A stretch of DNA of 64,000 bases, from IMG/VR virus record IMGVR_UViG_3300033153_007754, positions 64,001 to 128,000 of that record. One strand, written 5' to 3'. Numbering within the stretch: the stretch's first letter is position 1; each line of letters starts with the position of its first letter. Below are positions 8,329 to 41,548 of this stretch, piece after piece. Origin of the DNA: a virus. Made by a program: the position numbers and the translations under genes. The notes under the pieces were generated by a model. That model did not search any database. It saw nothing but the letters and a program-made list of their open reading frames with translations, and had not been told where the DNA came from.

Positions 8329-8399
8329 TTGACAAACCCAAAAAAAACTGTATATTGTAGATAGATGGCAATTAAGCCATGATTCAATAGGAGAATGAT
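8329..8399 (+). promoter_or_regulatory. Early promoter + stem-loop + RBS cassette, copy 1
   Basis: TTGACA...TATATT, ATGGC-AATTAA-GCCAT (8365-8380), AGGAGA. Confidence 0.85.
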
Positions 8400-9380
8400 A
8401 TGATTGAGAATACTATGTGGTGTCCAAATTGTAATGAGGGCGAGGAATTAAAGAACATTAGTGATGGAAATATAAAGTGTAGAACATGTGGGTACATAGG
8501 AAAGCCGAATTGTCTTACCAATCCGTCATCGACAGAATTGGTAACCAGTGAGGAAGATATTAACGAATTGGTAGATTGTGTTACGGATAAATCACATCAA
8601 ACAACTGGTATTGGCTTTTTTAGTGCAGGGTCTGTTGATATAATTAATTTAATAAATGAAAATGAAGGGTTATTGAAATATGATTCATATGGTTCATTTA
8701 TTTTTATTATTTGGAATGGGGAAAACACCCAAAAAGTAATAGATTTATTAAAAAAAGGCGATGTGTTTCATGCCTTTATTTTAAATCACAATCATTGGTC
8801 ATATTCACAGGAAGATACACTTAAAAGAATTTCAGGTCTAATTCAATATTGGAATAACCATACTTCATCCATTACCTATCATAAGGTAAAAAATCAACAA
8901 ATTGAATTAAATAAAAAACATGTAGAATGTATGGAAGGTATGGGAGTATATTCTACTAAAGATATTAATGATTTTATGCATCCAATATATTTACTAAACA
9001 GAATATATAAAAACAAAGAAATAACTAAAAGGGATATGGGTGAGTTAAAAAAACTTATCCCTGATAATGCTGAAGGGATTAAATTAATTGAAAATTTTAA
9101 ATCTGATGTGTGTAGAGATTTTTTTCACCATGGTCATTTAGGTTATGATGAATATTTAGATACACATCTACCCATTTACAATATGTTAATAAAAAATCTA
9201 CCAGAAAACATTAAAAAAATCATATCTGGAGGGACTGATTCTTATAGTTACTCATATGAAGAAGAATGGGGTAAAAGAATGAACCAAAATGTCCATAGAA
9301 TTGACACTGAATTTATGCTTAATCAATTAAAAGGTTTAAGGCAATATGCTAGACTATTAATAGATATAGAAAAAAACTAA
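8400..9380 (+). CDS. Early hypothetical protein with N-terminal Zn ribbon
   Basis: CPNC...CRTCG; directly behind cassette 1. Confidence 0.7.
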   Translation: MIENTMWCPNCNEGEELKNISDGNIKCRTCGYIGKPNCLTNPSSTELVTSEEDINELVDCVTDKSHQTTGIGFFSAGSVDIINLINENEGLLKYDSYGSFIFIIWNGENTQKVIDLLKKGDVFHAFILNHNHWSYSQEDTLKRISGLIQYWNNHTSSITYHKVKNQQIELNKKHVECMEGMGVYSTKDINDFMHPIYLLNRIYKNKEITKRDMGELKKLIPDNAEGIKLIENFKSDVCRDFFHHGHLGYDEYLDTHLPIYNMLIKNLPENIKKIISGGTDSYSYSYEEEWGKRMNQNVHRIDTEFMLNQLKGLRQYARLLIDIEKN

Positions 9381-9415
9381 ACAATCCCCAATTAAATAAA
9401 ATAAAATAAAAACGC

Positions 9416-9485
9416 TTGACGAATCCCGAAAAATCAGTATACTCTAAGTAGATGGTAATTAAGCCATAACCCAAGGGAGGATACT
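9416..9485 (+). promoter_or_regulatory. Early promoter + stem-loop cassette, copy 2
   Basis: TTGACG...TATACT, ATGGT-AATTAA-GCCAT (9452-9467), GGAGG. Confidence 0.85.
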
Positions 9486-10073
9486 ATGAAAGTCATTGAA
9501 TCAAATAACGCATATATGCAGAAAGCGGAATCAATAATTATAACTTTTATTCAACCTATGTTTCATAGGGATTATAAGAATTCTTTAATGTATAATATCA
9601 AAGAAGTGTTATCATACCTATCAAAAAGAAAAAACACACCATCATTAAGCCTACATTGGTTGAATATGTCTTTAGAAAATGGATTCACTCACATGGCATT
9701 AAATAAAAGAATAGAAAAAAAAACTATAAAAAAACTTAATAAAATTAGATTAAAAAAAATATCATTATCCGATAATGAATATAGGTTACTGGGTACACAC
9801 ATTGGTTTAAATGGTAGTAATTCAATTAACTCTTTGGTTGATGATAACTATTCTTATGTTGCACTAGAAGATTATAAGGATGGAACTAATTTTTCAAAAC
9901 ATAAAATAGCCGGTTTAATATCTTCATTAGAAGAAAAAGGTTTTATATATAATGAAGATATTGGTCAAAATACTTTATATGTATTAAATGTTGATTATTT
10001 ATTAGAATATATTTTAACTGAGGAAGAATGTAGTATGTCTTTTTGGGATTGGGAATTATTCAGAGTGAAATAA
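9486..10073 (+). CDS. Early hypothetical protein (possible C-terminal wHTH)
   Basis: SKHKIAGLISSLEEKGFI is winged-helix-like. Confidence 0.55.
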   Translation: MKVIESNNAYMQKAESIIITFIQPMFHRDYKNSLMYNIKEVLSYLSKRKNTPSLSLHWLNMSLENGFTHMALNKRIEKKTIKKLNKIRLKKISLSDNEYRLLGTHIGLNGSNSINSLVDDNYSYVALEDYKDGTNFSKHKIAGLISSLEEKGFIYNEDIGQNTLYVLNVDYLLEYILTEEECSMSFWDWELFRVK

Positions 10074-10131
10074 AACATCAGACCTAAACAAGTCTTAAAA
10101 CTGTTTTTTTTTCATTAGGAGGGTTGTAATA

Positions 10132-10875
10132 ATGTATAAGTACACGGTAACATTGATATGTTACCAAAACAGGAAGTTTTTAGAAATCGTATTCATTGTC
10201 ACATCAATATGTGGTTTAGAACATTTTAGTGGTGGTGAATTATTGGATATTATCGAAAAATTAAACATTGATATTGTATTTGATACTTCAATTATATGTG
10301 ACGATTGGGAATCAGATGTAGATTTTAAAATAATACACCAAAATGAATTGGTGTTAAAAGATGAAAACAAAATAAACACCAAATTTAAAATTAAAGCTGA
10401 TGAATTAAATAGTGATATATTAAAACATAAATTAGAAAGTCTAAAATTAAAGTGTGAAAAATATGATTTTATAAGTGAGATTTTAGAATCAGAAACAAGA
10501 AATTTAACTAAGGATGAAAAATTGTTTCATAGTGGTTTTAGTTTTGAATATGACGAATATATGTATTTTAAAGAAAGAAGAATGAAGGAATTTATAATTG
10601 ACAGGAAGGGTAGAATACATAGGGTTGCTGAAAACCTTTATTTTTCCCGTTGGGGTTGGGATGGTACATCATTTCATGATAAAATCACCAAACCATTTTT
10701 CCAAAATGTTAAATACCCTAAATCACATGCAGTTAATAAAGGATGGATTATAATTGGTAGCCATGTTGGATTTAAAATTATTGTAATGCCAACAATAAGA
10801 CAAATAGAAACATTAAAAAAATTGGGTTGGCATAGTATATGGTTTAATGGTGAATATTTAAATATTAATAATTAG
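10132..10875 (+). CDS. Hypothetical protein
   Basis: ORF with AGGAGG RBS. Confidence 0.65.
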   Translation: MYKYTVTLICYQNRKFLEIVFIVTSICGLEHFSGGELLDIIEKLNIDIVFDTSIICDDWESDVDFKIIHQNELVLKDENKINTKFKIKADELNSDILKHKLESLKLKCEKYDFISEILESETRNLTKDEKLFHSGFSFEYDEYMYFKERRMKEFIIDRKGRIHRVAENLYFSRWGWDGTSFHDKITKPFFQNVKYPKSHAVNKGWIIIGSHVGFKIIVMPTIRQIETLKKLGWHSIWFNGEYLNINN

Positions 10876-10884
10876 GAGGATAGT

Positions 10885-11037
10885 ATGTGTGTTCAAAAAG
10901 AAAATGTAATGAACCAAACAACAGGGTTTGGTTTTTTTAGTGCTGGTGATATTGAACACATTAACACTAAATTCATGCTTAATCAATTAAGAGGTGTAAT
11001 TCAATGCCTTAGATTATTAACAGATATAGGAAAATAG
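10885..11037 (+). pseudogene. 50-aa internally deleted paralog of 8400..9380
   Basis: QTTGFGFFSAG fused to INTKFMLNQLRG...RLLTDIGK; AGGAGG RBS intact. Confidence 0.75.
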
Positions 11038-11058
11038 GAACACACTATTCTCTCAAAA

Positions 11059-12147
11059 CTAAACAATACCCATCTCAATCAAATTAAAAATAAAATTTTC
11101 ATAATTACTGACAGTTCCAGCAAAAGTATCAAAGTTTAACGAATCTATATACCCATTTAATATAGCTGGTTGTAGAATATCTAATTTCACCACAATATCT
11201 TTTAATAAAATTGTATCAACATAACCATATTTAATATATTTTTTGTAATCATTTAAGTATAACTTTTCAAGGTTACCTTCATCGTGGTAATTAACTTTCC
11301 CATATTCATCACCTAAAATTGTTTTTGCAACATAATCTAAAGAATATTTTGGAAGTGGTGGGTAATACACTTTTAATAAATCCATACTATCTATCTGTGA
11401 AACCCCCAAAATATCAACAGCATCATATTCACCAAATTTATCCCTGCCTGTATAAGTTCTTACCTTACCAAAAGGTGAAAAGTTCTTACCACCGAGACCA
11501 ATTTTTTCAGCACGATAATAGAGATATGGGTCATCAAATTTAGAACCATTATGTGCTATTATGATATCATTATTTTCTTTTAAATATTCAAAGAAATGTG
11601 ATATTAAATCTTTTTCGTTTTCAAAATGTTTATAATAATCATATGTCTGAGTATAATCTTCTTTGTAACCAAAAGCAAAACTATGTTTTTTATTAAAATC
11701 ATAACCTGTTATTAGTGTTACAGCGTGTTTGGCTTCTTTAACATTCACTCTTTTACCATCGAACCTGGTTTCTATGTCATAATAAAGTGGCCGTGGAATG
11801 TTTAAATCCATTAAATCTACATCCAAACTAAAGTTTTTACTGATATATTGACACTCTATAGTATCAACACCATACAAATCTATTTCACCATCTTTTTTCA
11901 ATGTTCGTAATAAATTTTTATATTCTTTAATGTCGTTTGATTTATATTCAGCAACATTAACACCTTCTATTGTAACACAAGTGTTTTCACTTTCATTTGC
12001 AGATTCTATATATAACCTTAAAGGCATTTGTTTTATTATTTTTGAAACATATTCTAATGTCATAAAATCATAATATTTTAAATATAATTTATTTCTATAT
12101 TCCTTGATATAAGTATATTGTTGTTTTATTTCCATGTTATTACCCAT
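11059..12147 (-). CDS. Family B DNA polymerase, N-terminal/3'-5' exonuclease half (gp43 part A)
   Basis: ExoI YYDIET, ExoII HNGSKFDDPY, KYSLDYVA, ExoIII YGYVD; ends at ENFIFNL. Confidence 0.9.
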   Translation of the reverse strand: MGNNMEIKQQYTYIKEYRNKLYLKYYDFMTLEYVSKIIKQMPLRLYIESANESENTCVTIEGVNVAEYKSNDIKEYKNLLRTLKKDGEIDLYGVDTIECQYISKNFSLDVDLMDLNIPRPLYYDIETRFDGKRVNVKEAKHAVTLITGYDFNKKHSFAFGYKEDYTQTYDYYKHFENEKDLISHFFEYLKENNDIIIAHNGSKFDDPYLYYRAEKIGLGGKNFSPFGKVRTYTGRDKFGEYDAVDILGVSQIDSMDLLKVYYPPLPKYSLDYVAKTILGDEYGKVNYHDEGNLEKLYLNDYKKYIKYGYVDTILLKDIVVKLDILQPAILNGYIDSLNFDTFAGTVSNYENFIFNLIEMGIV

Positions 12148-12349
12148 TCTTGAAAAGAATAATTATAGTTTTTTTTTGATATTTAAGGAATCTTTTTTTG
12201 TTAAGATTTCATTTCATTAAGTTGATTCTTAATGTCTTTAACGTCATTTTCTGATAGTTTAACTCCACCCAGACGTTCATCCACATCATTTAATATTTCG
12301 CTCAATTCATCTAAATGTTCACTCATTTTTACCTCCATATATTAACTTT

Positions 12350-12658
12350 TTATTTAGTGATAATATTCACCAATTTTTTAGGAATAAGAACTATCTTTTC
12401 GATATTTTTATCACCAATATATTTTATTACAGCCGAATTATTCATAGCAAGTCTTTCAATTGCACCCTTGTCTTCATCTTTATATATAACTTCTTTCCCT
12501 ATTAATTTCCCATCCACTTGAAAAATGACAACTGTATATTCACCCTCTTCTTTCCATCCACATTTAGTTGATTCAATATATGAAAAAGGGTTGAGAAAAA
12601 AACAATCAATACATTCTGCTATATCATTAATAAGTATTTCACGTATTTCATCAATCAT
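12350..12658 (-). CDS. Protein carrying a LeuRS C-terminal-domain-like module
   Basis: FQVDGKL...AVIKYIGDKNIEKIVLIPKKLVNII matches LeuRS VQVNGK...KVIYVPGKLVNIV. Confidence 0.75.
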   Translation of the reverse strand: MIDEIREILINDIAECIDCFFLNPFSYIESTKCGWKEEGEYTVVIFQVDGKLIGKEVIYKDEDKGAIERLAMNNSAVIKYIGDKNIEKIVLIPKKLVNIITK

Positions 12659-13014
12659 TTTTTACCACCATGTTGATTTAATAAAAGTTCAATTTCTTTA
12701 TCTTCTTCATCAGTTGTATCAAGACCTTTATCTTCTGTCAATAAATTGTTTACTTCGATTAATTTATTTAATAACACCATGTTACTTGTATTGTAGCCAT
12801 CTAAAGTAATCCTTAAAGAATCATGTATCTCTTTAATTAACTTAATTAACCCTAAATCAACATCTTCATTATTATTATTATCTGCACGTTGCATCAATTT
12901 CTTTAAAAATTGTTTTAAATCCTTTATTGATTCTTTATATTCTTTACGGATAAAAACAACTTCATTGTTAAACGCTTTTACATTCCCCTCTATTTTAATA
13001 ACATCCTTATCCAT
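12655..13014 (-). CDS. Helical protein, possible terminase small subunit (gp16-like)
   Basis: Size and helical pattern only. Confidence 0.3.
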   Translation of the reverse strand: MDKDVIKIEGNVKAFNNEVVFIRKEYKESIKDLKQFLKKLMQRADNNNNEDVDLGLIKLIKEIHDSLRITLDGYNTSNMVLLNKLIEVNNLLTEDKGLDTTDEEDKEIELLLNQHGGKK

Positions 13015-13642
13015 AGTAATCACCAATATTAAATTTAATAACAAATTCAAATATATGTTTAAAATCACCTTCTTTATCAAATTGATAATTAACACCAACT
13101 TCATCATCATATTCATGTAAAAGATTCACCCCATTTGGTGGTAAATTTGTTAAATAATTTTCTGTGTTATGATATAAATAAAGTAACATAACACTTTCAT
13201 AATAATTCTCTAAACTAGATAAAATCTCTTCACTAATATTTTTCCAATTAATTATCTTTCTTATGTATAAATAATAAGAATCAGTGTTATAATTTAATAA
13301 CATATTGTTTAATGCAGTACTATCATTTTCGTCAACAAATTTTAAATATCTTGTTACAAAAGGTGTAACATTCTTATCAACATGTATTTTATCATAATCA
13401 TTAGAATCACCTGTATCATAGCAAAGCGTTAATAAGCCATCCGCATCTGAAAGTATATTATTTAACAATAAAACATTTGGGTCAGAGCTTCTAATATCTT
13501 CATATGTTGTTGTTGCCGTTGCTGTATTTATTTTATCTTTAGATAAAAGTAAATATAAAAATTTACCATTTTTAATAAATCTCACAATCATTTTTATTAT
13601 ACCAGCATTAACAGCATTAAAAATCGTATTTTGTTTACTCAT
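13007..13642 (-). CDS. Hypothetical protein, probably virion
   Basis: In a late operon. Confidence 0.5.
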   Translation of the reverse strand: MSKQNTIFNAVNAGIIKMIVRFIKNGKFLYLLLSKDKINTATATTTYEDIRSSDPNVLLLNNILSDADGLLTLCYDTGDSNDYDKIHVDKNVTPFVTRYLKFVDENDSTALNNMLLNYNTDSYYLYIRKIINWKNISEEILSSLENYYESVMLLYLYHNTENYLTNLPPNGVNLLHEYDDEVGVNYQFDKEGDFKHIFEFVIKFNIGDYYG

Positions 13643-13644
13643 GT

Positions 13645-15345
13645 TTACCTCTCATTTAAATAACGATAAACACCACTATCTTTATCATAGTAACCTAAAA
13701 TAACATATTCCCCATAATACCCCGTTAGCTCTGTTTTAGTTGCACCACCAGCATCTTCCACTAATTTTAGTTCACCACTTAAATGTGATTCTAAAAGATA
13801 AAATGATTTAACAGCTCCTTCATTTGCGTAACTTTTTAATATAAATGCATTATTTAAAATTATATTACTTGATGTAAACAATGGTTTTATTATAATGCTA
13901 TCAGTACCACTTTCTTTAACCAACATACCATCAAACATATTATTTTCATTTGCGAATTCAGTGTTTTTAGGTAAATTAATTAAAAATTGTTTTCTTTCTG
14001 TTATGTTTCCTAAAGCCATATTAACATTTAATGGCATTACACATAAATAATCATCATTTTTTCGCATAACAATATAATCATTTGTTATATACGCAACATC
14101 AGATAAATTAAAAACTTCATCATTTAAAATGTCATCATTATTGTCTTTTTGGATTGGTATATTCCATTGTGATAATAATACACCAGTATTTAAATCAAGT
14201 GATTGCATAAATGTATTATCACCGTTTTTATTTGGTGATGCCCTAAACAACACAAAAACCTGTCTGATAATATCTATTTGGTGTGATATATAATCCGTAT
14301 CAGTCAAACTAATTGCTTGTATTACACTCACATCTGTATTATTTACGGTAACACTACTTCCAGTTCCACTTAATGTAAAATAACCAACATTTAGATTATC
14401 CACACCTGAAGTACCTGTAATATACCACATGTTTGAACCTGATGTTGTTATGTACATTTGCCTAAAATTGGTGGCTGAATTAATTGTCAATGAACCAGTA
14501 TTTAATGAAAGAGGGTACGGAATTGCGTCCGAAGCTACATATGCAATACTAACAGTTGTATCATACGGATTTACACCATAGATAGATGTTATAATAGCAT
14601 AATCATTATCCATATCATATGTTACATCATAGCTTTGTATAGTCTCTGTTGTTGAGTTACCAAGGGTTGACATAACCGTTGTAATACTTGGTGTAATAAA
14701 GTTAAATAAAAACTTAGCAGTCCAATGATATTTAGTTCCTGGTGCACCAGTTATATAATTAGTAGCAGTAACATAAAAACCCAGTGATTGACTTCCAGAA
14801 TCATAATAACAATAAATGTGAGAGTTTTGTGAGGTTTTTTCCTGTAATATTTGGTTTGTTGTTATTACCTCACTATGTTCTCCATTATAAAAATCTAGTG
14901 TATCACCATTTAATCCATCATATTTAACAAAAAGATGTGTTTCGTTATTGTATTCATATAGAACTAAATAAAAAATAATACTATAATCACCCCCAATCAT
15001 ATAATATTTTTTTACTTCATGAATATAAGTATAATCCACCCCTAAATTAAATGTCATATATCCATCGTTTAATGTGGATGGTATGCTTATACCTTCAGGT
15101 GTATTGATATACACTAAATGTTCACTTTGAAATTCAGGTGCATCTAATACAGAAACTTGGTGTTTTTTAAACATATCTGTTTCCGTGTTGAAATTATTCT
15201 CAACTAATTTGTTGTATTTTTCGTAAAACTCTTTAATTTTATTGGTACTTGGAATGACCAGTAAATCCGATTTTGGATATAAACTCATATTTTTTAAACT
15301 CCTATAAAAAATCCATTGTGAAATATTCATATATAAATTCGACAT
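13645..15345 (-). CDS. Putative virion structural protein
   Basis: S/T/G/N/Y-rich beta-type composition; late operon. Confidence 0.55.
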   Translation of the reverse strand: MSNLYMNISQWIFYRSLKNMSLYPKSDLLVIPSTNKIKEFYEKYNKLVENNFNTETDMFKKHQVSVLDAPEFQSEHLVYINTPEGISIPSTLNDGYMTFNLGVDYTYIHEVKKYYMIGGDYSIIFYLVLYEYNNETHLFVKYDGLNGDTLDFYNGEHSEVITTNQILQEKTSQNSHIYCYYDSGSQSLGFYVTATNYITGAPGTKYHWTAKFLFNFITPSITTVMSTLGNSTTETIQSYDVTYDMDNDYAIITSIYGVNPYDTTVSIAYVASDAIPYPLSLNTGSLTINSATNFRQMYITTSGSNMWYITGTSGVDNLNVGYFTLSGTGSSVTVNNTDVSVIQAISLTDTDYISHQIDIIRQVFVLFRASPNKNGDNTFMQSLDLNTGVLLSQWNIPIQKDNNDDILNDEVFNLSDVAYITNDYIVMRKNDDYLCVMPLNVNMALGNITERKQFLINLPKNTEFANENNMFDGMLVKESGTDSIIIKPLFTSSNIILNNAFILKSYANEGAVKSFYLLESHLSGELKLVEDAGGATKTELTGYYGEYVILGYYDKDSGVYRYLNER

Positions 15346-16048: not shown

Positions 16049-16074
16049 AAATAACCCCTAAATATATAATCTAT

Positions 16075-23875: not shown

Positions 23876-24169
23876 TTATAAAGAATATTTTTTTTTTATG
23901 TCATCCAAAGTTAGTGTACCATTTTTTTCTAATATCTTTATTATTATATGAAATGGTGTATATGTTGGTAAATCACAACCATCTTCAATCCTAAAACCAA
24001 TACCATCAGAGTCAAAAATATTAAAAGTAATTTCGCAATTAAGCATATTACCAATCATTTCCGCCATTTTTGAAGCGGCATCATATACTTTATTTTCATA
24101 TTTATTTATATTCTCATGCAATTTTTTAATTTTTTTTATATCATCTTTCATATCAACACCCAATAACAC
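23876..24169 (-). CDS. Early hypothetical protein
   Basis: Behind cassette 3; true start probably ATG 24151. Confidence 0.6.
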   Translation of the reverse strand: MLLGVDMKDDIKKIKKLHENINKYENKVYDAASKMAEMIGNMLNCEITFNIFDSDGIGFRIEDGCDLPTYTPFHIIIKILEKNGTLTLDDIKKKYSL

Positions 24170-24223
24170 ATGGCTTAATTACCATGTATTGATAGTATAC
24201 ATATGTTACAAATAAATTGTCAA
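24170..24223 (-). promoter_or_regulatory. Early promoter + stem-loop cassette, copy 3
   Basis: TTGACA-18-TATACT, ATGGT-AATTAA-GCCAT. Confidence 0.8.
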
Positions 24224-29491: not shown

Positions 29492-29588
29492 AAAAAGGGG
29501 ATAAACAACCGAATTGTTATTTACCCCCTTTTTACTAGGAGAATCGTATGATAATGAAACAACCAAAAGAAGAAGTAACCCATCAACA
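29492..29588 (-). ncRNA. Candidate small RNA containing an anti-SD tract
   Basis: TTGACA-17-AATAAT upstream; terminator hairpin whose two plus-strand mismatches are G-U pairs on the minus strand. Confidence 0.5.
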
Positions 29589-29663
29589 TAACTATTATTG
29601 CATTTATTATTATCTTTGTCAAGTTTTTTTTAAATAAATATCTTATATTATCAGGATTTTTTT

Positions 29664-31657: not shown

Positions 31658-31732
31658 ATAAATAAAACACTTGACATTCACTCAAAAATTGTGTACAATC
31701 TTTTTGTTGGTGTGTGTTTTTAGGAGAGAGAT

Positions 31733-32889: not shown

Positions 32890-32898
32890 ATCAACCTC

Positions 32899-34512: not shown

Positions 34513-34593
34513 TTAAACCTCTTAGTGTTATATTTGTAATTTATTTATAGTATTTTTGGATTGTTTAGTAAACTTTTTTTTTAGATGTATTTT

Positions 34594-34902
34594 TTACTTG
34601 CCTTCTTTTTTCATCTCAACTAGTTTTTCTTGAATTTCTTTGAGTTCATCTTCAGATAAATTACCACCTTCAACTTCTTCCTTGATTTTTTTTAATTCTC
34701 CTTCAATTTCATCAGCACTAGTTTTTTTAGAATTTTCTTTAATTGTTTGAATTTCTTTTTTAATTTCAAGCAATTGTTCTTTAGTATAATTACCATTTGC
34801 AATCATTTCGTGGATTTTTTTAATCTGTTCTTCTGGTTTTTGTTCATTTAACTTGCTTTCAACCAACTCTACCAATTCTTTCAACCCTTTAATTTCATTC
34901 AT
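34594..34902 (-). CDS. Acidic coiled-coil protein, possible prohead core
   Basis: E/K-rich; adjacent to the portal gene. Confidence 0.4.
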   Translation of the reverse strand: MNEIKGLKELVELVESKLNEQKPEEQIKKIHEMIANGNYTKEQLLEIKKEIQTIKENSKKTSADEIEGELKKIKEEVEGGNLSEDELKEIQEKLVEMKKEGK

Positions 34903-34950
34903 TTTAACTCCTTATTTTTAAAAATAAAAAAACTTAATATAACTTATTTA

Positions 34951-35685
34951 TTAACCAACATATAAATCACTTCCGGCCGAATATTCAGACTTAAATTTTT
35001 CTTCTAAAGCTTCAACATCACTTTTCCCTTCAGTGTAAATAAAATTAGCATTAACGTTCGCACCACCTGAAAGCTGTCTATCACCAAATTTAGATAAATT
35101 AAAACCCCAATAAGATTTACTCCATGCGACAGCATAAGCACGAATCCAAATGTTATTATAATAAACAGGGGAATCAATATCATATCTTGCTTCAACTTCC
35201 AAGAATATTTCATCACCAATTTTAGGTGTTGGTACTATATTTAATTCTCTACTTTCAGAACTAAATTCAAATTTCACACCACCTGAAAAATGATTTTCAA
35301 CCATAGTTGCATATTCAGCATATAATTCATAAGATATTATATCATAATTGTTATAACTAGAACCTGAACGCCAAGCCAGTGAATAGTCATCAAATAAGAC
35401 ACCTTCACCAAAACGAGCTGATAATGTGCCACTTTTACTTTTTAAAACTTCATTAATAGCCATTGTACCGGCTGGCAAAACAATGGAAGTAGGGTCATCA
35501 ATCGTAATCTTTATTACTTTGCGTCTTGTGGATTCCATAGATGTTTTACTAATATAATATCTCAATGCTTTGTCAATTGCGTGTTTTACTTGTATCTTAG
35601 CAACTTCCTGATGTATAATTGGGTGTCCTAGTTCTACTAATATGTAATTAACAAATTCGTCATATGTTTGTATATTTATTATCAT
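34951..35685 (-). CDS. Neck protein, gp13-like
   Basis: LGHPII..EV...I..AL; WIRAYA...WG.NLSKF...L.GG..VN. Confidence 0.9.
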   Translation of the reverse strand: MIINIQTYDEFVNYILVELGHPIIHQEVAKIQVKHAIDKALRYYISKTSMESTRRKVIKITIDDPTSIVLPAGTMAINEVLKSKSGTLSARFGEGVLFDDYSLAWRSGSSYNNYDIISYELYAEYATMVENHFSGGVKFEFSSESRELNIVPTPKIGDEIFLEVEARYDIDSPVYYNNIWIRAYAVAWSKSYWGFNLSKFGDRQLSGGANVNANFIYTEGKSDVEALEEKFKSEYSAGSDLYVG

Positions 35686-36350
35686 ACCTTACCTTCTTTT
35701 TCAATTTCAATCATTTCATAAATTGATGAATTAACCAATTTTTTTAATTTAATTGCAAAATATTCTCTTCTAACATGTATTGATTTACTAGACATTATTA
35801 AAACTTCGATTTCTTGTAAAAAACGCTCAATTGCGGGAGCATGTATTAAACTAAAACGTTCAATTAGTGGCTTTGTTATCCCTGCTTCTTCCCATATTTG
35901 AGTATAATGGGTTACAGTTTTTTCAGCATATGATTTAATATTATTCATTTCAGTTTCATTGTCATAAAAATTTGAATTTAAGAATCTTAATGTTATAACA
36001 CCTTTTAGAAATATATCTTTTACTGCTAATATTTTAATATTTAATAATTTCTTTTTTTCAATGTCTACATTATTATTCCCATTTATCATATCCTGTAATT
36101 GATGTAGATATGTAGATATTTCATGAAATAACCCCCTCCCACTAATTAATACATATTCGTAAACTACATCTATAGCAATATAATGTACAAATGTAAGAAT
36201 GAAAAAAGCATAAAAAGGGTTATTTAAACTTAATATTAAGTTAATTGCTATAAAAGCTAAAATACCCGACAACAAGAATTTTACTATAAATGGTCGTCTC
36301 ATTCTTTTTAACATATTAATTATTTTAATTTTCATTTCCATCTTCTCCAT
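35682..36350 (-). CDS. Membrane protein (2 TM), possible lysis protein
   Basis: Two N-terminal hydrophobic segments; late operon. Confidence 0.4.
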   Translation of the reverse strand: MEKMEMKIKIINMLKRMRRPFIVKFLLSGILAFIAINLILSLNNPFYAFFILTFVHYIAIDVVYEYVLISGRGLFHEISTYLHQLQDMINGNNNVDIEKKKLLNIKILAVKDIFLKGVITLRFLNSNFYDNETEMNNIKSYAEKTVTHYTQIWEEAGITKPLIERFSLIHAPAIERFLQEIEVLIMSSKSIHVRREYFAIKLKKLVNSSIYEMIEIEKEGKV

Positions 36351-36750
36351 TTAGATATTTAACAATTTCTTCAATGTCATTTTTGTTTTTATCTGATTTT
36401 AAAATTAATAATAGTTTCACCAAAAAAGAACTTTTTTTATTTTTTAAAAAATTAACAATATCATTAAAAATAAATATAATGAATAATTGTACAAAAATAA
36501 CACCTAAAAAATAAGAATGAATATGTGCAATTACAATAACCGTTTTGTATATAATTATATGATAAACCATTACAATTACACAATTGTTAATAAAAAACTT
36601 GAATGTACTTTTTAATTCTTTTTTGATTATAACTTCATTTGTTTCACGGTTAATTAAATATTTATATGCTACAAGAAATACACCCCTGAAAACAAGAAAC
36701 AATAGTATGTATATATATATTAATGTGTAGCTTTCCAAAATAACCTTCAA
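36325..36750 (-). CDS. Multi-pass membrane protein, possible holin
   Basis: About 3 TM segments and a charged C-terminus. Confidence 0.4.
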   Translation of the reverse strand: MKVILESYTLIYIYILLFLVFRGVFLVAYKYLINRETNEVIIKKELKSTFKFFINNCVIVMVYHIIIYKTVIVIAHIHSYFLGVIFVQLFIIFIFNDIVNFLKNKKSSFLVKLLLILKSDKNKNDIEEIVKYLNGEDGNEN

Positions 36751-36764
36751 ACATATAAAACTAT

Positions 36765-37604
36765 TTACATGTAAACATAAATCCCAGTTATTAGATTACC
36801 CTCTCCACTTATCATAAATCCTATTTTAAGGTAATATTCGTAACTGTAAGTATCTTTGTTTTTAGTGTATAAGTTATATAGCTTTAAATTATGTTCATCT
36901 ATACTAGAAACACTATCAGGTATATCAAATAATTTATTATAAGCAATATCAACACTTTCTAGTGATTTATTAAGAATGGATTTTAAATTATCTTCAGCAA
37001 CATCCAACATAAATGTATCAAGTTTATCACCTTTTAGTGTATATAATAAATTATAGTATTTATCTATTACTGGTCTTAAACACTTATAATTTTTTATTTC
37101 AGATAATTTTAAATCACAACTTATTTCTTTATAATTGGATACACTCATTTCACCTAAAAAAATATTATATTTAACATTAAATATTTCATCAGGGTAATTT
37201 CCCTTTATGTAATTAAACACATTTTCATTAAGTGTATAAAGATGTATTTTTTCACCTAATTTTCTTGCAACAGCTAGTTTAGTATAAAAATCATTATTAG
37301 CAAATCTTTCAGTAAAATATAAACTACTATTTTTATAAATTGTTTCCATTAATATATCACTTAATTTATCTTGTTTTAAACCATCTTCATAATCAGTTAT
37401 TTTTCTTTTATTTTTTATTTTATATTTTTTATTCTCAATGTGAAAATAATCACCAATAATTTCTATCATTTGATTATCTGTTTTTCTATATTGCTTTTTT
37501 AACCTTGAATACGCTGATTTTGTGAATTCGTAGTAAAAATCATTATATACAATCACATTTTCAATAGGTGTTTTAAACTTAATTTTATACATATCACCTC
37601 TCAT
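36765..37604 (-). CDS. Hypothetical protein
   Basis: ORF. Confidence 0.55.
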   Translation of the reverse strand: MRGDMYKIKFKTPIENVIVYNDFYYEFTKSAYSRLKKQYRKTDNQMIEIIGDYFHIENKKYKIKNKRKITDYEDGLKQDKLSDILMETIYKNSSLYFTERFANNDFYTKLAVARKLGEKIHLYTLNENVFNYIKGNYPDEIFNVKYNIFLGEMSVSNYKEISCDLKLSEIKNYKCLRPVIDKYYNLLYTLKGDKLDTFMLDVAEDNLKSILNKSLESVDIAYNKLFDIPDSVSSIDEHNLKLYNLYTKNKDTYSYEYYLKIGFMISGEGNLITGIYVYM

Positions 37605-38137
37605 TCTCTGGATAAAAAATAGGCATCAACGATATCTGAAATTCCATCTTTGCCATATTTAATATTATACTTATCTGCTAATGTTTTTATATATCCTTTA
37701 ACCAGTTTTTCAGGGATAGATTTAAACATATCCAACTTATCTGCATTACCATTTCCGGTGGCGTTTTTCTTTAATACTTTAATCCCAACAAGATTTATTT
37801 CTATACTGCTTTTACTAATCAAATATTTAATTGTACCAATTAATTCACCTATCTGATATAAACGCATAGATGCACGTGAAAAAGCATAGTTTTCTACGGA
37901 TATTCTTATTGGATTGTGTGATATTATAAAGTGTGATATAGTATCTATTCGTTCATTAGGTGTTATTTCACAATCAACAAATTCAACATTAAAATTACCA
38001 TCATCAGAATTATATTTTTTTAATTTTATCAACTTTTTTCTGGATGTTAATAATAATACATTTATAATACCATTATCAGTATTTTTTATATAAATACAAG
38101 ATTTTTTTAGTGCAAGGTCACAACCAACTTGAATCAT
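37601..38137 (-). CDS. RuvC-like Holliday junction resolvase
   Basis: GCDLA, VENY, KKNATGNGNADK, DIVDAY. Confidence 0.85.
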   Translation of the reverse strand: MIQVGCDLALKKSCIYIKNTDNGIINVLLLTSRKKLIKLKKYNSDDGNFNVEFVDCEITPNERIDTISHFIISHNPIRISVENYAFSRASMRLYQIGELIGTIKYLISKSSIEINLVGIKVLKKNATGNGNADKLDMFKSIPEKLVKGYIKTLADKYNIKYGKDGISDIVDAYFLSRE

Positions 38138-38529
38138 TATTGCAACTCTAAAAAATTAGAAATATGGTTTTCATTTATACTTGGTACATTCCAGATAACA
38201 TTATAAATTAAAGTGAATTCACCTAGTGTTTGTGTAGAACCCAATATATTTATTTCAATTCGATTGATTTTATACACTCCATTTGGTAAATTGATAGATA
38301 AATCAATCTGATTTAAACCCTCGCTTCGTTTTGTCGGTATACCTGTTGTTATACCCCCCTTGTATGTTAAAACGCTTGCATCGTTCAATTTTGTGACTTC
38401 AATTTCTAAATAAAAATCATTATTATCAACATCAAATTCAGATAACAGTGCAGACTTATCAGGGAACATGAAATTCATATTGTTTCGGTATACATTAATT
38501 TGTGGTGAGTTTGCTAAATTTAAAGCCAT
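38137..38529 (-). CDS. Hypothetical late protein
   Basis: AATAAATA upstream. Confidence 0.5.
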   Translation of the reverse strand: MALNLANSPQINVYRNNMNFMFPDKSALLSEFDVDNNDFYLEIEVTKLNDASVLTYKGGITTGIPTKRSEGLNQIDLSINLPNGVYKINRIEINILGSTQTLGEFTLIYNVIWNVPSINENHISNFLELQ

Positions 38530-38609
38530 AAATAACCCCTTAAAACATATAAATATTGTTACATATTTATTTTAAATAATAAAGTTATTTATTTTTTTAT
38601 GGTTTTCTC

Positions 38610-38849
38610 CTATAGGTTTGAAATTTTTGTGTCTATTTCTTTTAAAATATCTTCTGAATAACCTGAAAATGAAAAATAACAGTGTTGGAAATTACTAACA
38701 GTTGCATTAAAATCAGTGTCACCAATTATAATATTCCAAATTTTATTATTTTTCCAATTTTCTACATTCCCGAATATACCAACAAATATTTCATTATTTT
38801 TATTTTGGTTTTTCCTTTTTAATTTTTTCAATGCTTTTAATAAATCCAT
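38610..38849 (-). CDS. Hypothetical protein
   Basis: GAGG RBS. Confidence 0.5.
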   Translation of the reverse strand: MDLLKALKKLKRKNQNKNNEIFVGIFGNVENWKNNKIWNIIIGDTDFNATVSNFQHCYFSFSGYSEDILKEIDTKISNL

Positions 38850-38859
38850 AATACCACCT

Positions 38860-38888
38860 CAAAAAAAGAAGCCCCTTAAATGGGGCTT
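38860..38888 (-). terminator. Rho-independent terminator
   Basis: AAGCCCC/GGGGCTT stem plus U tract on the minus strand. Confidence 0.75.
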
Positions 38889-38894
38889 TAAATG

Positions 38895-40367
38895 TTAACC
38901 ATTAATTATATAAGTTGTCCATACATTGTAGTCATCAAAACCACCTTTCTTCGATGTGCAATTTAGGTTCAACCAACTTTCAGGTGAACCAGATTCTTTT
39001 AAAAACCCTTCTAAATAACTATTATTTGTAAGTATCCCAGAATATGAATGTAGCTTTACTTTTATTTCTTCACCATTTTCATATTTTTCATAGTCTAATT
39101 GTAATTTATCACTTGCCATTTTTTCTTTTTGTTTTTCAGCAATCAAACCACATTTTTTATTTAGATAAGCAAATTGTTCAATATCTCTTATACCACCTAT
39201 TTTTTTGCCATCTAAAGTGGCTTTTTCAAACTGTATTGTATCCCATTGTATTTCACAATTATTTAAGTAAGATGATATTTTTTTATACTTAAGACCATCC
39301 GCCTTAACAGATACGCTTGTTTCAACTTTACCATCTAAAACAATGTATTGTATGTTTATAAAAAAGGTATGACCTTTTCTTTTAAGTTCAAATTCTTCTT
39401 GATGACTATAATCGTCAGTAGGATTTTCAATATCTTTTAAAAGTTCAATTTCTTCAAGTTCTTTTTGTTGTTTTACTTCTTCAATTTCTTCCAATCTTTT
39501 AATTTCTTTTTCTTTTTTAGCTTCTGCATTAACACTTTTAAATTTCTTAGATTCTTCTTCTGTTGTATCCAGAAAAAGAGTTTGTGAAAAATACATTGGG
39601 TCATCTTCTCCATAAGACATATCAACATTTTCACTTGCTAGTGCAATGTCTCTTTTATTTTGTCTTTTCCCACCACTCCAATAACATCTATTCATTAATT
39701 CTTCTGTTATTTCCATTCCATATTGACCTAGATATTCACCATGTTTTTTAATAAAATTATTCAATCTTTTTTCATTTTGTTTTTCAATTTTTTCATTTTC
39801 TACAATTTCATTTCTTTCTGCTTTTAATTCAGAAAGTTTTTTAATTTGTTCTTTTGTACCATTTTTTGAAACGAAATCAGCCTTTTGAGTTCTCCAAAAT
39901 TTATTAATATCAGTTTCAATAGCAGATAAATATTTATCTGCTATTTCTTCTTTTTTTGATGCAACAACATTTTTTAACTCTTCTAACATTTCAACATTTT
40001 CACCAGCAAATTCTTTACATTTCTTAATGCCATTACTATATAAGTAATCTGCATTTAAAACGTAATTTAAGGATTTATCAAAAGCTTTTCTATTTTTTTC
40101 ATCAATTTTTTCTTGTTTTTTAACTTCTTCTTCTTTTTTTGCATTTTCTAAATCACATTCTTCAATATGATAGGCAATTCTAACCTTGCCGTATCTACTT
40201 GAAGATACTTCAGTTTCACAATTTAAAGTATGAGTTTCCCCAACTTTAAAACTTTTCATGGTTTCTTTTTTTTCAAGTTTCCATTTAAGAGAATAACCCT
40301 TAAATTCTGTAGTGCAATGTATCCATTTTCTTCCCATCTTTTCTATCTTTAGTGTTAATTCAATCAT
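38895..40367 (-). CDS. Early hypothetical protein (490 aa)
   Basis: Behind cassette 4. Confidence 0.7.
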   Translation of the reverse strand: MIELTLKIEKMGRKWIHCTTEFKGYSLKWKLEKKETMKSFKVGETHTLNCETEVSSSRYGKVRIAYHIEECDLENAKKEEEVKKQEKIDEKNRKAFDKSLNYVLNADYLYSNGIKKCKEFAGENVEMLEELKNVVASKKEEIADKYLSAIETDINKFWRTQKADFVSKNGTKEQIKKLSELKAERNEIVENEKIEKQNEKRLNNFIKKHGEYLGQYGMEITEELMNRCYWSGGKRQNKRDIALASENVDMSYGEDDPMYFSQTLFLDTTEEESKKFKSVNAEAKKEKEIKRLEEIEEVKQQKELEEIELLKDIENPTDDYSHQEEFELKRKGHTFFINIQYIVLDGKVETSVSVKADGLKYKKISSYLNNCEIQWDTIQFEKATLDGKKIGGIRDIEQFAYLNKKCGLIAEKQKEKMASDKLQLDYEKYENGEEIKVKLHSYSGILTNNSYLEGFLKESGSPESWLNLNCTSKKGGFDDYNVWTTYIING

Positions 40368-40437
40368 GTGATTCTCCTACAAATCATGGCTTAATTACCA
40401 TCTATTTACAGTATATTGATTTTTCGGGATTTGTCAA
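40368..40437 (-). promoter_or_regulatory. Early promoter + stem-loop cassette, copy 4
   Basis: TTGACA...TATACT, ATGGT-AATTAA-GCCAT, AGGAGA. Confidence 0.85.
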
Positions 40438-40459
40438 GGGTTTTGTTACTTTTTTTGTA

Positions 40460-40909
40460 TTATTTTTTAGAAATCTTATCTAACACAACTGAATGTACAT
40501 TTTCTCTTACTATTTTATAATTGTATTTAGTTTTAAATTCATCATTAAAAAAGATATAATTATGTACCACTACACCATGAACATAACCATATAATCTTAG
40601 GTGACTTGGTGGATTAAGTTCTTTTATCATTTCTTTCGCAATCTTTATATTTTCTTTTCTAACTTCTTCATAGTCTTTCAATTTACCAACTTTTTTTAAT
40701 ATTCTTTCAAATAAATTTTCTGCTGTATTTTTTTCCAATACTTTCCAGTACCAACTATTGTTGTTTATATACACTTCCCATTCATTTTCGTATTCTAAAT
40801 ATTCTACATACCCGTAATATTTTCCTAATTCATTATATAATAAATCATCAATATCTTTTTCTATTTGTTTGATTATGTTAATGTTTAATGTTCTTTTACC
40901 CTTAGTCAT
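40460..40909 (-). CDS. Early hypothetical protein
   Basis: Behind cassette 5. Confidence 0.7.
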   Translation of the reverse strand: MTKGKRTLNINIIKQIEKDIDDLLYNELGKYYGYVEYLEYENEWEVYINNNSWYWKVLEKNTAENLFERILKKVGKLKDYEEVRKENIKIAKEMIKELNPPSHLRLYGYVHGVVVHNYIFFNDEFKTKYNYKIVRENVHSVVLDKISKK

Positions 40910-40977
40910 ATAATCCTCCCAGATTGTGGTTTAATTGCCACCTATATACAATATACTCATTTATTTAAATTTGTCAA
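40910..40977 (-). promoter_or_regulatory. Early promoter + stem-loop cassette, copy 5
   Basis: TTGACA...TATATT, GTGGC-AATTAA-ACCAC, GGAGG. Confidence 0.8.
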
Positions 40978-41090
40978 GGCTTTTCTTACTTTTTTTTGAT
41001 TATTTTTTAGATATATTACCTAATACAACTGAATGTACATTTTCTCTTAGAATTTTATTATTATATTTACTTTTGTGGATTTATGTTTTT

Positions 41091-41477
41091 TTATTTATAT
41101 TCTCTAAATTGAACATGCTTGAATAGTGGTCTCTTTTTCACAGTACCATCCGGTAAAATTTCTTCACTACTTTCTCGCCGTGTTGTAGCATACACCGCAA
41201 TAATACCATTTTTTTTACCAAAATTAACTAGGTTATATGTTACACCAAACTCACCAGATATGAACAATACATCTCCTTTGTTTAATTTTGAGATTTCCTT
41301 TTTGAATGAGTTAAGCATTTCAGAATCCAATTCCCCATCAGGTGGTACCTGTGAAAATCTCTTTTGTAAATCCTCACTAATAGTTTTAAATTTTTCAATA
41401 CCATATTTTAATGTGGCATCTTTTTTTTGATTCTCATTCATTGGGTGGCTTGTCATTTTTAACATTGTCTTATTCAT
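41091..41477 (-). CDS. Csx20-like protein, putative cyclic-oligoadenylate ring nuclease (start ATG 41477)
   Basis: SH.M...QKKDA, FSQVPP, GDVLFISGEFGVTY, VYATTRRES.E, FKHVQFREY match my recollection of the Csx20 consensus. Confidence 0.8.
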   Translation of the reverse strand: MNKTMLKMTSHPMNENQKKDATLKYGIEKFKTISEDLQKRFSQVPPDGELDSEMLNSFKKEISKLNKGDVLFISGEFGVTYNLVNFGKKNGIIAVYATTRRESSEEILPDGTVKKRPLFKHVQFREYK

Positions 41478-41548
41478 ATCATTCTCCTGTTGAATCATGG
41501 CTTAATTGCCATCTATCTATAACATACGGATTTTTTTAGATTTGTCAA
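41478..41548 (-). promoter_or_regulatory. Early promoter + stem-loop cassette, copy 6
   Basis: Leader nearly identical to copy 1 (ATGGCAATTAAGCCATGATTCAACAGGAGAATGATATG). Confidence 0.85.

What the first reader, a model, noticed from the sequence alone, without database searches (positions are those of the whole stretch)
8329..41548. Six promoter + covarying stem-loop cassettes define an early regulon of orphan genes
Seen: at 8365, 9452, 24170, 40386, 40926 and 41497, a TTGAC(A/G)...TAnnnT promoter is followed within a few nt by RTGGY-AATTAA-RCCAY and usually an RBS. The loop is invariant and oriented. Stem changes are C>T (giving G-U) in three copies and a compensatory A-T>G-C swap in copy 5, which also has one mismatch; this favours an RNA hairpin. 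Known: promoter-early-stem-loop (PeSL) cassettes shuffle genes in some T4-like phages, and Aca2 binds leader hairpins of acr operons. Inference: since one cargo is Csx20-like, the other five (8400, 9486, 23876, 38895, 40460) are prime anti-defence or host-takeover candidates.
Basis: partly seen in the sequence, partly recalled or inferred. Interest (0 to 1): 0.8.

Follow-up and report, generated by a model that had tools for sequence, protein, structure and literature searches.

The report
Phage early promoter plus RNA-hairpin cassettes
An uncultured, very divergent T4-like phage reuses one ~100-base unit (strong host-type promoter, a small RNA hairpin at the predicted start of the message, ribosome site) in front of 19 mostly unknown accessory genes; it is a variant of the known "PeSL" cassettes of T4-type phages, not a new kind of system.

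Summary
All six sites exist exactly as described. The complete 153.5-kb phage genome holds 14 canonical and 5 diverged copies; one diverged copy (w47667-47727) heads an RNA ligase gene.

The unit is ~100-135 bp: A-rich upstream region, TTGACA, 16-nt spacer, TATAYT, 8 nt, the hairpin ATGGY-AATTAA-GCCAT, an SD region that may form a second small hairpin, then ATG. Compensatory stem changes in diverged copies, G.U pairs far outnumbering A.C, and a start 0-4 nt from the predicted transcription start favour a 5'-terminal RNA hairpin over a DNA operator.

The loop is the most conserved segment (0/84 deviating cells), which hints at a loop-specific reader that I could not identify. There is no upstream terminator stem-loop, so classic PeSL anatomy is only partly met. 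Copies are mosaic, which fits recombination between them.

Cargo: Csx20 ring nuclease (confirmed), RNA ligase, four MORN-repeat proteins, one DUF4942 protein, otherwise orphans. The anti-defence label for the orphans stays guilt by association.

No relatives carry the cassette, and no RegA, RegB, AsiA, MotA, Aca-type regulator or recombinase was found. The scan has noted similar promoter/5'-hairpin/RBS cassettes in unrelated coliphages (unchecked AI notes). Verdict: a new variant of a known kind, moderate interest.

The parts
8329..8399 (+). Cassette 1: -35 TTGACA 8329-8334, -10 TATATT 8351-8356, hairpin H1 8365-8380 (ATGGC-AATTAA-GCCAT), class-A leader with SD TAGGAGAAT, ATG at 8400
9416..9485 (+). 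Cassette 2: -35 TTGACG 9416-9421, -10 TATACT 9438-9443, H1 9452-9467 (G.U closing pair), class-B leader GGGAGGATA, ATG at 9486
24152..24223 (-). Cassette 3: -35 24223-24218, 18-nt spacer, -10 24199-24194, H1 24185-24170 (extendable to 7-10 bp), atypical leader, ATG at 24151
40368..40437 (-). Cassette 4: -35 40437-40432, -10 40415-40410, H1 40401-40386, class-A leader, ATG at 40367
40910..40977 (-). Cassette 5: -35 40977-40972, -10 40955-40950, H1 40941-40926 (GTGGC-AATTAA-ACCAC: compensatory outer pair, C.A inner mismatch), class-B leader, ATG at 40909
41478..41548 (-). Cassette 6: -35 41548-41543, -10 TATGTT 41526-41521, H1 41512-41497, class-A leader, ATG at 41477
47667..47727 (-). Cassette 7 (diverged, not in the finding): TTGACA-17-TATTAT, hairpin ATGGGA-ATTA-TCCCAT at 47694-47679, AGGAGG, ATG at 47666
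   Evidence: weak covariance-model hit (21.3 bits)
8400..9380 (+). Cargo 1: 326-aa orphan, 8 Cys
   Evidence: no family; Atlas uninformative
9486..11037 (+). Cargo 2: small operon of orphans (195 aa, 247 aa, 50 aa) ending at a bidirectional terminator at 10911-10934
   Evidence: (weak phrog_25342)
23876..24151 (-). Cargo 3: 91-aa orphan, followed by further small minus-strand ORFs
38895..40367 (-). Cargo 4: 490-aa orphan, followed by an intrinsic terminator at 38888-38869 that ends all three tandem units
40460..40909 (-). Cargo 5: 149-aa orphan
41091..41477 (-). Cargo 6: Csx20-family protein (cA4 ring nuclease family), 128 aa
   Evidence: activity of the family from bioRxiv 10.1101/2024.09.24.614671
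46554..47666 (-). Cargo 7: RNA ligase (370 aa) behind the diverged cassette
   Evidence: phrog_548, E 8.4e-32
46949..46964 (-). Chance 1-mismatch match to the hairpin inside the RNA ligase ORF; not a cassette

Best explanation
Each unit is a portable early-expression cassette. The host RNA polymerase holoenzyme recognises a near-consensus -35/-10 promoter preceded by an A-rich tract. Transcription is predicted to start at the conserved AG 7-8 nt after the -10, so the 16-nt hairpin H1 (AUGGY-AAUUAA-GCCAU) forms at the very 5' end of the mRNA with 0-2 unpaired nucleotides before it. A strong Shine-Dalgarno follows directly, possibly presented in a second 4-5 bp hairpin (H2), about 36 nt before the AUG. 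I infer that this 5'-terminal hairpin together with the nearby strong ribosome site acts on the message after transcription. It would most likely shield the 5' end from 5'-end-dependent decay, so accessory genes are expressed strongly and uniformly right after infection. The invariant loop suggests that an unidentified factor also reads the hairpin. Because the ~100-bp unit is shared, copies recombine, which makes the unit a shuffling point for accessory genes, as proposed for PeSLs. Shown: the sequence family, its copy number, covariation, strand bias, position and mosaicism. Inferred: the transcription start, the early timing, the stabilising effect and the gene shuffling.
For: There are 14 canonical and 5 diverged copies. 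The promoters score 10-11 of 12 and rank top in their regions. H1 and H2 are paired in 92% of cells, 5 of 9 pairs change on both sides, 0 of 500 shuffles reach that, and slid controls give 30-58%. RNAalifold predicts H1 de novo. Diverged copies keep a hairpin at the same place with other sequence: GTGAT-AATCAA-GTCAC, GTGGT-ATTAT-ACCAC, ATGGGT-AATTAA-ACCTAT and ATGGGA-ATTA-TCCCAT. Pairing is better on the sense strand: H1 92.9% against 85.9%, H2 90.8% against 72.3%, with 23 G.U cells and 5 A.C cells. Of 12 sequence-unrelated sigma-70-type promoters in the same genome, 4 also start with a hairpin of -4 kcal/mol or stronger within a few nt of the -10, against a 4% background; this points to a structural and positional role. 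The unit measures 100-135 bp at 75-83% identity and ends at the ATG. All four gametes occur at 259 of 465 site pairs. A separate late-type motif lies before the capsid and portal genes. That 5'-terminal stem-loops close to a ribosome site stabilise mRNA is established knowledge recalled from memory (E. coli ompA; B. subtilis aprE and ermC leaders), not checked here.
Against: There are no transcription-start, timing or half-life data, and the host is unknown. H1 is weak (-2 to -5.9 kcal/mol) and is broken in one copy (genome 152877). A pure stabiliser does not explain why the loop is the most conserved segment: 0/84 deviating cells, against 4/84 for the -35, 8/84 for the -10 and 16-37% for the flanks. 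Most G.U cells trace to one shared C/T polymorphism, so the number of independent events is small. All comparisons are between paralogous copies in one genome, because no relative carrying the cassette could be found. H2 is not predicted de novo, and its key covariation (T-A against C-G) may be a single event separating two leader classes.
Confidence: 0.55

Rival explanations
1. H1 (perhaps together with H2) is a sequence-specific RNA operator. A trans-acting factor would read the invariant loop and coordinately repress, process or time the whole early regulon, as Aca2, T4 RegA or gp43 operators do, or as a Cas6-type hairpin nuclease would.
For: The loop is invariant in 14 of 14 canonical copies and is the most conserved segment, while the stems tolerate compensated change. 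This is the pattern expected for a loop-reading RNA-binding protein. Diverged copies keep an AUUA or AUCA loop core. The two adjacent 5'UTR hairpins, the second holding the SD, resemble the Aca2 RNA motif described in PMC13551039. The phage encodes a Cas6b-type hairpin endoribonuclease with no CRISPR array. A putative early antisense RNA matches class-A leaders.
Against: No RegA, RegB, Aca2, XRE-HTH or RHH gene was detected, and none of the small cargo proteins looks regulator-like. Unrelated hairpins at other promoters argue for a generic structural role. The 8 nt after H1 are poorly conserved (37% non-consensus), unlike a crRNA handle.
Confidence: 0.2
2. The 5-6-5 inverted repeat is a DNA operator centred near +10. 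A dimeric repressor would bind it to shut off all early promoters at once.
For: The position overlaps the start site, like classical operators. The arms are spaced one helical turn apart (ATGGC-N6-GCCAT) in 14 near-identical copies.
Against: The centre is more conserved than the arms, the opposite of typical dimeric operators. Half of the copies break the DNA symmetry with T where RNA would still pair as G.U. Diverged copies change both arms together while keeping complementarity, which a fixed protein specificity would not tolerate. No HTH_3, RHH_1 or Aca2 gene is present.
Confidence: 0.12
3. The hairpin has no function of its own. It would be conserved because it rides in a homogenised repeat, or because it serves as a recombination hot spot or site for cassette shuffling.
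For: The whole unit is repeated and mosaic. In RB49 a PeSL crossover mapped inside the stem-loop's loop (PMC2839356). Inverted arms around an asymmetric invariant core resemble a recombinase core site.
Against: Conservation drops sharply on both sides of the hairpin (21% and 37% non-consensus in the adjacent 8-nt segments against 0% in the loop), not gradually as a conversion tract would. Stem covariation implies selection for pairing. No tyrosine or serine recombinase is encoded, and the controls worked.
Confidence: 0.08
4. The hairpins are solitary CRISPR-repeat mimics (RNA anti-CRISPRs, Racr) that titrate a host Cas6 or Cas complex.
For: They are strongly transcribed from early promoters, are present in many copies, and have Cas6-substrate-like size (5-bp stem, 6-nt loop). 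They lie in a genome with other CRISPR-related cargo, namely Csx20 and a type IV-B module. The concept comes from PMC10651486.
Against: No array built on this hairpin exists in ~185,000 species genomes. All 48 single outside hits are chance matches or ordinary terminators. The element is an mRNA leader, not a small RNA, and it lacks a conserved handle. The host and its repeats are unknown.
Confidence: 0.03

Closest known systems
PeSL (promoter-early stem-loop) cassettes of T4-type phages RB49/phi1, T4/PST and KVP40/nt-1 (Arbiol et al. 2010, PMC2839356; Comeau et al. 2014, PMC4122927)
   Same: Both occur in T4-type genomes. Both are ~100-bp composite repeats with an AT-rich upstream region, a near-consensus sigma-70 promoter, SD and ATG. 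Both are dispersed in front of ORFan or accessory genes, and the copies are recombinogenic or mosaic. One described PeSL subclass has its stem-loop downstream of the -10.
   Different: The PeSL stem-loop is G/C-rich, varies in sequence and position, lies mostly upstream of or inside the promoter, and acts as a terminator. Here it is a weak hairpin of fixed sequence and position with an invariant AAUUAA loop. It is transcribed at the 5' end of the message, has no T-run, and no upstream terminator is present. The host type also differs (GGAGG ribosome sites, 26% GC), and the phage is only ~25% identical in gp23 to cultured T4-like phages.
5'-terminal stem-loop mRNA stabilisers (E. coli ompA 5'UTR; B. 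subtilis aprE and ermC leaders; SP82 early-RNA 5' stabiliser), recalled from memory
   Same: Both have a hairpin within a few nucleotides of the 5' end followed closely by a strong ribosome-binding site.
   Different: The known stabilisers are single-gene leaders, not a 19-copy family, and their loops are not sequence-constrained. No stability data exist for the cassettes.
Aca2/Aca1 control of anti-CRISPR operons through promoter inverted repeats and 5'UTR hairpins (PMC13551039 and work cited there)
   Same: An inverted repeat at the promoter or start site reappears as hairpins in the 5'UTR next to or including the RBS. One motif marks several counter-defence operons, and csx20 homologues are among the regulated cargo.
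   Different: No Aca2, XRE-HTH or RHH gene is present in this genome. The motif sequence is unrelated. There are 19 units across a lytic T4-like genome rather than one or a few acr-aca operons.
Racr / solitary repeat units (Camara-Wilpert et al. 2023, PMC10651486)
   Same: Both are short hairpin RNAs placed directly behind a strong phage promoter.
   Different: The cassette hairpin resembles no known array repeat, is part of an mRNA leader, and lacks a conserved handle.
Promoter/5'-hairpin/RBS cassettes noted by this scan in phAPEC8-like and jumbo coliphages (earlier AI notes, unchecked)
   Same: They share the promoter, transcribed 5' hairpin, RBS architecture, the many copies and the tiny early genes.
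   Different: They share no sequence and belong to different phage lineages and hosts. There the cassettes sit in tandem arrays; here they are dispersed around the genome.

Membership tests
PeSL cassettes | Located in a T4-type phage genome | tested here: met
   The capsid protein is gp23-type (phrog_138; PF07068), although only ~25% identical to cultured T4-likes. A T4-type late motif TATAAATA lies before the capsid and portal genes.
PeSL cassettes | Near-consensus sigma-70-like promoter with an AT-rich upstream region | tested here: met
   TTGACA-16-TATAYT preceded by an A-tract.
PeSL cassettes | SD and start codon of the downstream gene at the 3' end of a ~100-bp conserved unit repeated through the genome, preferentially before ORFans | tested here: met
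   The units measure 100-135 bp at 75-83% identity and end at the ATG. There are 19 copies. The cargo is mostly orphan.
PeSL cassettes | Stable stem-loop that terminates or attenuates transcription coming from upstream | tested here: not met
   14 of 17 copies have no terminator-like hairpin upstream, and the few upstream candidates are weak, AT-rich stems. H1 has -2 to -5.9 kcal/mol and no T-run, and the terminator scan does not call it. The tandem units 41497, 40926 and 40386 share one terminator at 38869-38888.
PeSL cassettes | Recombination between copies creates indels between related phages, or minicircles | tested here: inconclusive
   Mosaicism among copies (259 of 465 site pairs with four gametes) and a 171-bp duplicated flank fit this. 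However, no related genome with cassettes exists for comparison.
5'-terminal stabiliser hairpin | Hairpin within ~0-4 nt of the real mRNA 5' end | not testable with these tools
   This is only predicted from promoter geometry: the -10 ends 8 nt before H1, and the conserved AG lies at the expected start.
5'-terminal stabiliser hairpin | Hairpin lengthens mRNA half-life | not testable with these tools
   An experiment is needed.
Aca-type DNA/RNA dual control | An Aca-family HTH or RHH regulator encoded in the element | tested here: not met
   PF08965, PF01381 and PF01402 are absent from the genome, and the controls ring.
Aca-type DNA/RNA dual control | Inverted repeat at the promoter that also forms 5'UTR hairpin(s) next to or including the RBS | tested here: met
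   H1 lies at about +3 to +18 and H2 spans the SD.
Racr / solitary repeat unit | Sequence and structure similarity to a CRISPR array repeat | tested here: not met
   No tandem occurrence in genome contigs. The single hits are chance matches or terminators. The host repeats are unknown.
Csx20 (cargo gene 41091-41477) | Full-length match above the curated cut-off to Csx20 models | tested here: met
   PADLOC PDLC01384, E 6.6e-38, residues 4-128. NCBIfam NF040559 equivalog, 130.5 bits against a cut-off of 70.

The most novel reading that the evidence does not exclude
H1 is the missing RNA substrate of the phage's own array-less CRISPR module. The Cas6b-type endoribonuclease, encoded with the type IV-B (Csf) genes about 100 bp past the window's end, would bind or cut the invariant hairpin at the 5' end of the ~15-19 early messages. 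The phage could thereby time, process or silence its own early regulon, perhaps by loading Csf subunits onto the leader. My evidence neither supports nor excludes this. The hairpin is the only repeated, conserved, Cas6-sized hairpin in the genome, but the 8 nt after it are not conserved like a crRNA handle, and Cas6b relatives with arrays could not be retrieved.
Probability: 0.06. Interest if true: 0.85.

Novelty: new variant of a known kind. Interest (0 to 1): 0.4.

Why it matters
The cassette acts as a sequence barcode. In an uncultured, very divergent T4-like phage it marks which genes are probably switched on first by the unmodified host polymerase. The marked set includes a Csx20 ring nuclease, an RNA ligase and many MORN-repeat proteins, so the orphan cargos are a short, rational list to screen for counter-defence or host-takeover activity. 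The finding also extends the PeSL idea in two ways: to a low-GC, Gram-positive-style translation context, and to a form in which the stem-loop is an mRNA 5' element with a sequence-constrained loop rather than a terminator. If a loop-specific reader exists, it would be a new regulon-wide post-transcriptional control in phages.

Tried and rejected
1. Relatives. Exact and relaxed cassette patterns found nothing in viral, metagenome and genome collections. The 49 hits to the 18-mer alone (1 viral, 28 metagenome, 20 genome) are chance matches or ordinary terminators. Megablast and blastn against cultured phages found nothing.

2. T4 regulators RegA, RegB, AsiA and MotA were not detected. This negative is weak because the control genomes lack these families too.

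3. Aca2, XRE-HTH and RHH regulators are absent, and the controls work.

4. Tyrosine and serine recombinases are absent, so the site-specific recombination reading was dropped.

5. Racr / repeat mimicry: no array carries this hairpin.

6. Cas6b route: the word-based homologue search found only the protein itself, so repeats next to relatives could not be examined.

7. Rfam gave no match to the leader or to the long leaders behind promoters 499 and 46015. There are no tRNAs.

8. Cargo annotation by Pfam, PHROGs, NCBIfam, PADLOC and the ESM Atlas named only Csx20, MORN_2, DUF4942 and the RNA ligase.

9. Generic promoter counts equal chance in this 26%-GC DNA. Only the top-scoring sites are meaningful.

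10. The 1-mismatch site at 46949 was rejected as chance.

Full report
WHAT IS THERE. The motif RTGGYAATTAARCCAY occurs exactly at the six stated window positions, against 1.2 expected by chance. The window is bases 64001-128000 of a complete 153,500-bp virus record. Its terminal repeat is 114 bp and its GC content is about 26%. The record is a very divergent T4-type phage. It has a gp23-type capsid protein, a portal, a large terminase, a DnaB-like helicase, a split DNA polymerase and a ribonucleotide reductase. The capsid protein is only ~25% identical to any cultured phage and 43% identical to the nearest metagenomic protein.

FAMILY SIZE AND ANATOMY. A genome-wide search finds 14 canonical cassettes. 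A profile of the whole unit, a covariance model and a hairpin scan add five diverged members, at genome 499, 16630, 18423, 111727 and 152126. Genome 111727 is window 47667-47727(-) and heads the RNA ligase gene at w46554-47666. The 1-mismatch site at w46949 is a chance match inside that gene.

The conserved unit is much longer than the finding says. It consists of an A-rich tract, cTTGACAAATCC, an A-rich spacer (16 nt between hexamers), TATAYT, 8 nt ending in AG, and the hairpin ATGGY-AATTAA-GCCAT. One of two leader types follows: class A (GATTYnnTAGGAGAATSAT) or class B (AAYCYrrGGGAGGATAAT). The ATG comes next. Pairwise homology runs from about -60/-88 to +35/+57 relative to the hairpin, at 75-83% identity. 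The generic promoter scanner places these promoters at the top of each region (10-11 of 12 matches). Overall promoter-like counts equal chance in this AT-rich DNA.

RNA HAIRPIN OR DNA SITE. I aligned 17 copies (A2). On that alignment hairpin 1 (H1) and a second small hairpin spanning the SD (H2) are paired in 92% of cells. Five of nine pairs change on both sides, and 0 of 500 shuffles reach the observed values. Sliding the 3' partner drops pairing to 30-58%. RNAalifold recovers H1 without being told, but not H2, so H2 is tentative.

Diverged copies keep a hairpin at the same position while changing its sequence: GTGAT-AATCAA-GTCAC, GTGGT-ATTAT-ACCAC, ATGGGT-AATTAA-ACCTAT and ATGGGA-ATTA-TCCCAT. 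A dimeric DNA-binding protein of fixed specificity would not tolerate that. Pairing is better on the sense strand than on its complement: H1 92.9% against 85.9%, H2 90.8% against 72.3%, with 23 G.U cells and 5 A.C cells. The G.U variant is common, while A.C mismatches are singletons. One caveat applies: most G.U cells come from one shared C/T polymorphism.

The -10 ends 8 nt before H1 and a conserved AG sits at the expected start. The predicted transcript therefore begins 0-2 nt before the stem. This is inference from promoter geometry; there are no transcription-start data.

Of 12 sequence-unrelated sigma-70-type promoters in the same genome, four also begin with a hairpin of -4 kcal/mol or stronger within a few nucleotides of the -10. 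The background rate is 4%. A 5'-proximal hairpin therefore looks like a general habit of this phage's host-type promoters.

WHAT THE CONSERVATION SAYS. The loop is the most conserved segment of the cassette:
- loop: 0 of 84 non-consensus cells
- -35 hexamer: 4/84
- -10 hexamer: 8/84
- stems: 9/70 and 6/70
- spacer: 16%
- linker: 21%
- 8 nt after H1: 37%

The sharp drop on both sides argues for selection on the hairpin itself rather than a gene-conversion gradient. An invariant loop with covarying stems is what a loop-reading factor would produce. A plain stabiliser does not need it. I could not identify such a factor:
- RegA, RegB, AsiA and MotA were not detected. This is a weak negative because the controls were silent.
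- Aca2, XRE-HTH and RHH families were not detected, and the controls work.
- The small cargo proteins do not look regulator-like.

H1 is also weak, at -2 to -5.9 kcal/mol, and is broken in one copy.

COMPARISON WITH PeSLs. PeSLs are ~100-bp composite units found before ORFans: an AT-rich region, a strong sigma-70-like promoter, a stem-loop, SD and ATG. Their stem-loop is G/C-rich, varies in position, and acts as a terminator or attenuator. Recombination between copies shuffles genes (PMC2839356, PMC4122927).

The present family meets the promoter, SD/ATG, unit-length, dispersion and ORFan features. It fails the terminator feature. Terminator-like hairpins are absent upstream of 14 of 17 copies, and the few candidates are weak, AT-rich stems. 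H1 has no T-run and is not called by the terminator scan. The three tandem units at 41497, 40926 and 40386 share a single terminator at 38869-38888.

Shuffling cannot be tested without relatives. The copies are nevertheless strongly mosaic: all four gametes occur at 259 of 465 site pairs. One pair shares a 171-bp flank. Both observations fit recombination between copies.

TIMING. TATAAATA lies within 80 nt upstream of 11 of 200 genes, against about 3.4 expected. These include the capsid and portal genes, often within the longer motif TATAAATATATTTAT. A separate T4-style late class therefore exists, and the sigma-70-type cassettes belong to another class, presumably early. This remains an inference.

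CARGO. The cargo genes are as follows:
- Csx20, confirmed by two libraries. The family degrades cA4 and has been found in a few phage genomes. The authors of PMC13551039 suggest it may be co-opted for counter-defence.
- RNA ligase.
- Four MORN-variant repeat proteins and one DUF4942 protein, all outside the window.
- Orphans in every library, and in the Atlas for the two largest that were queried, for the rest.

Inferring function from a shared regulatory motif has a published precedent in Aca regulons. Here it remains untested.

OTHER RIVALS. A site-specific recombination site has no enzyme behind it: no integrase or resolvase is encoded, and the controls work. CRISPR-repeat mimicry (Racr, PMC10651486) has no support. 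No array in ~185,000 species genomes is built on this hairpin, and all single outside hits are chance matches or ordinary terminators.

The phage's own Cas6b is an attractive but untested reader of H1. Its relatives could not be retrieved. A putative early antisense RNA at w29497-29590(-) is complementary to a class-A leader module and is recorded as a lead.

VERDICT. The RNA-hairpin reading is supported. The PeSL analogy holds for the portable promoter unit but not for the role of the stem-loop. The anti-defence label for the orphans is plausible but unproven.

This scan has noted the same architecture (promoter, transcribed 5' hairpin, RBS) in unrelated coliphages. Those are unchecked AI notes, and none shares sequence with this family. 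I file the finding as a new variant of a known kind, of moderate interest.

Noticed in passing
window 29497-29622 (-) and 29536-29663 (+): A cassette-like promoter (A-tract, TTGACA, 17 nt, TGcAATAAT) points into a ~92-nt RNA ending in a strong terminator. The RNA is antisense to a class-A leader module (TAGGAGAATCGTATG) that heads a 28-codon ORF just before the large terminase gene. TAGGAGAAT occurs only 7 times in the genome, always in cassette-type leaders. In predicted duplexes with 218 start regions, cassette cargos take 11 of the top 17 ranks, although this is driven by the anti-SD stretch. It could be a cis or trans antisense regulator.
   Followed up: partly
L010:499-655 (+) and L012:5915-6015 (-): Two promoters of the cassette type run into longer, GC-richer leaders (about 120 and 75 nt) instead of H1. 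The leaders share GGKTATATGAC before a cassette-type SD. At 499 the hairpin looks split by a ~48-nt insertion (ATGGG...ATTAAGCCCAC). There is no Rfam or tRNA match.
   Followed up: partly
L013:90-3966 (+), about 100 bp past the window's end: An array-less type IV-B module: Cas6b-like, Csf1, Csf2 with an inserted Cas11-like part, a BrxP/DndC-like (PAPS-reductase-type) protein, and Csf3. It has its own TTGCAA-17-TATAAT promoter (L013:24-52) and no cassette hairpin. Cassette 132820(-) drives two small ORFs that converge on its 3' end.
   Followed up: partly
whole genome; in the window upstream of 53365 (capsid) and 34512 (portal): The T4-type late-promoter motif TATAAATA, often as TATAAATATATTTAT, lies before 11 of 200 genes against about 3.4 expected.
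   Followed up: partly
whole genome (window, L010-L014): ARAGORN finds no tRNA gene in the ~98% of the genome scanned (bases 60,001-64,000 were not covered). From memory, many T4-type phages carry several.
   Followed up: no
window 40440-40570 and 40980-41110 (-): The ~130 nt upstream of cassettes 4 and 5 are homologous (171 bp at 81% including the cassette). The 3' end of the 149-aa ORF therefore matches non-coding DNA downstream of Csx20, which is a footprint of duplication or recombination.
   Followed up: partly
L028, L033, L038, L048, L050, L054, L057, L060: In unrelated low-GC bacteria and metagenomes the same 18-mer occurs as an ordinary intrinsic terminator (AGATGGC-AATTAA-GCCATCT followed by a T-run). 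This is convergence, not homology.
   Followed up: yes
L010:6116-6286 (+) and L011:8853-9104 (+): Two cassette cargos are very small hydrophobic proteins (56 and 83 aa), probably membrane proteins.
   Followed up: no
L010:9110-9200 (+), L012:17215-17300 (+), L010:13724-13800 (+): Sequence-unrelated sigma-70-type promoters also start with a small hairpin a few nt after the -10. The one at 9110 again has an AUUA loop.
   Followed up: partly
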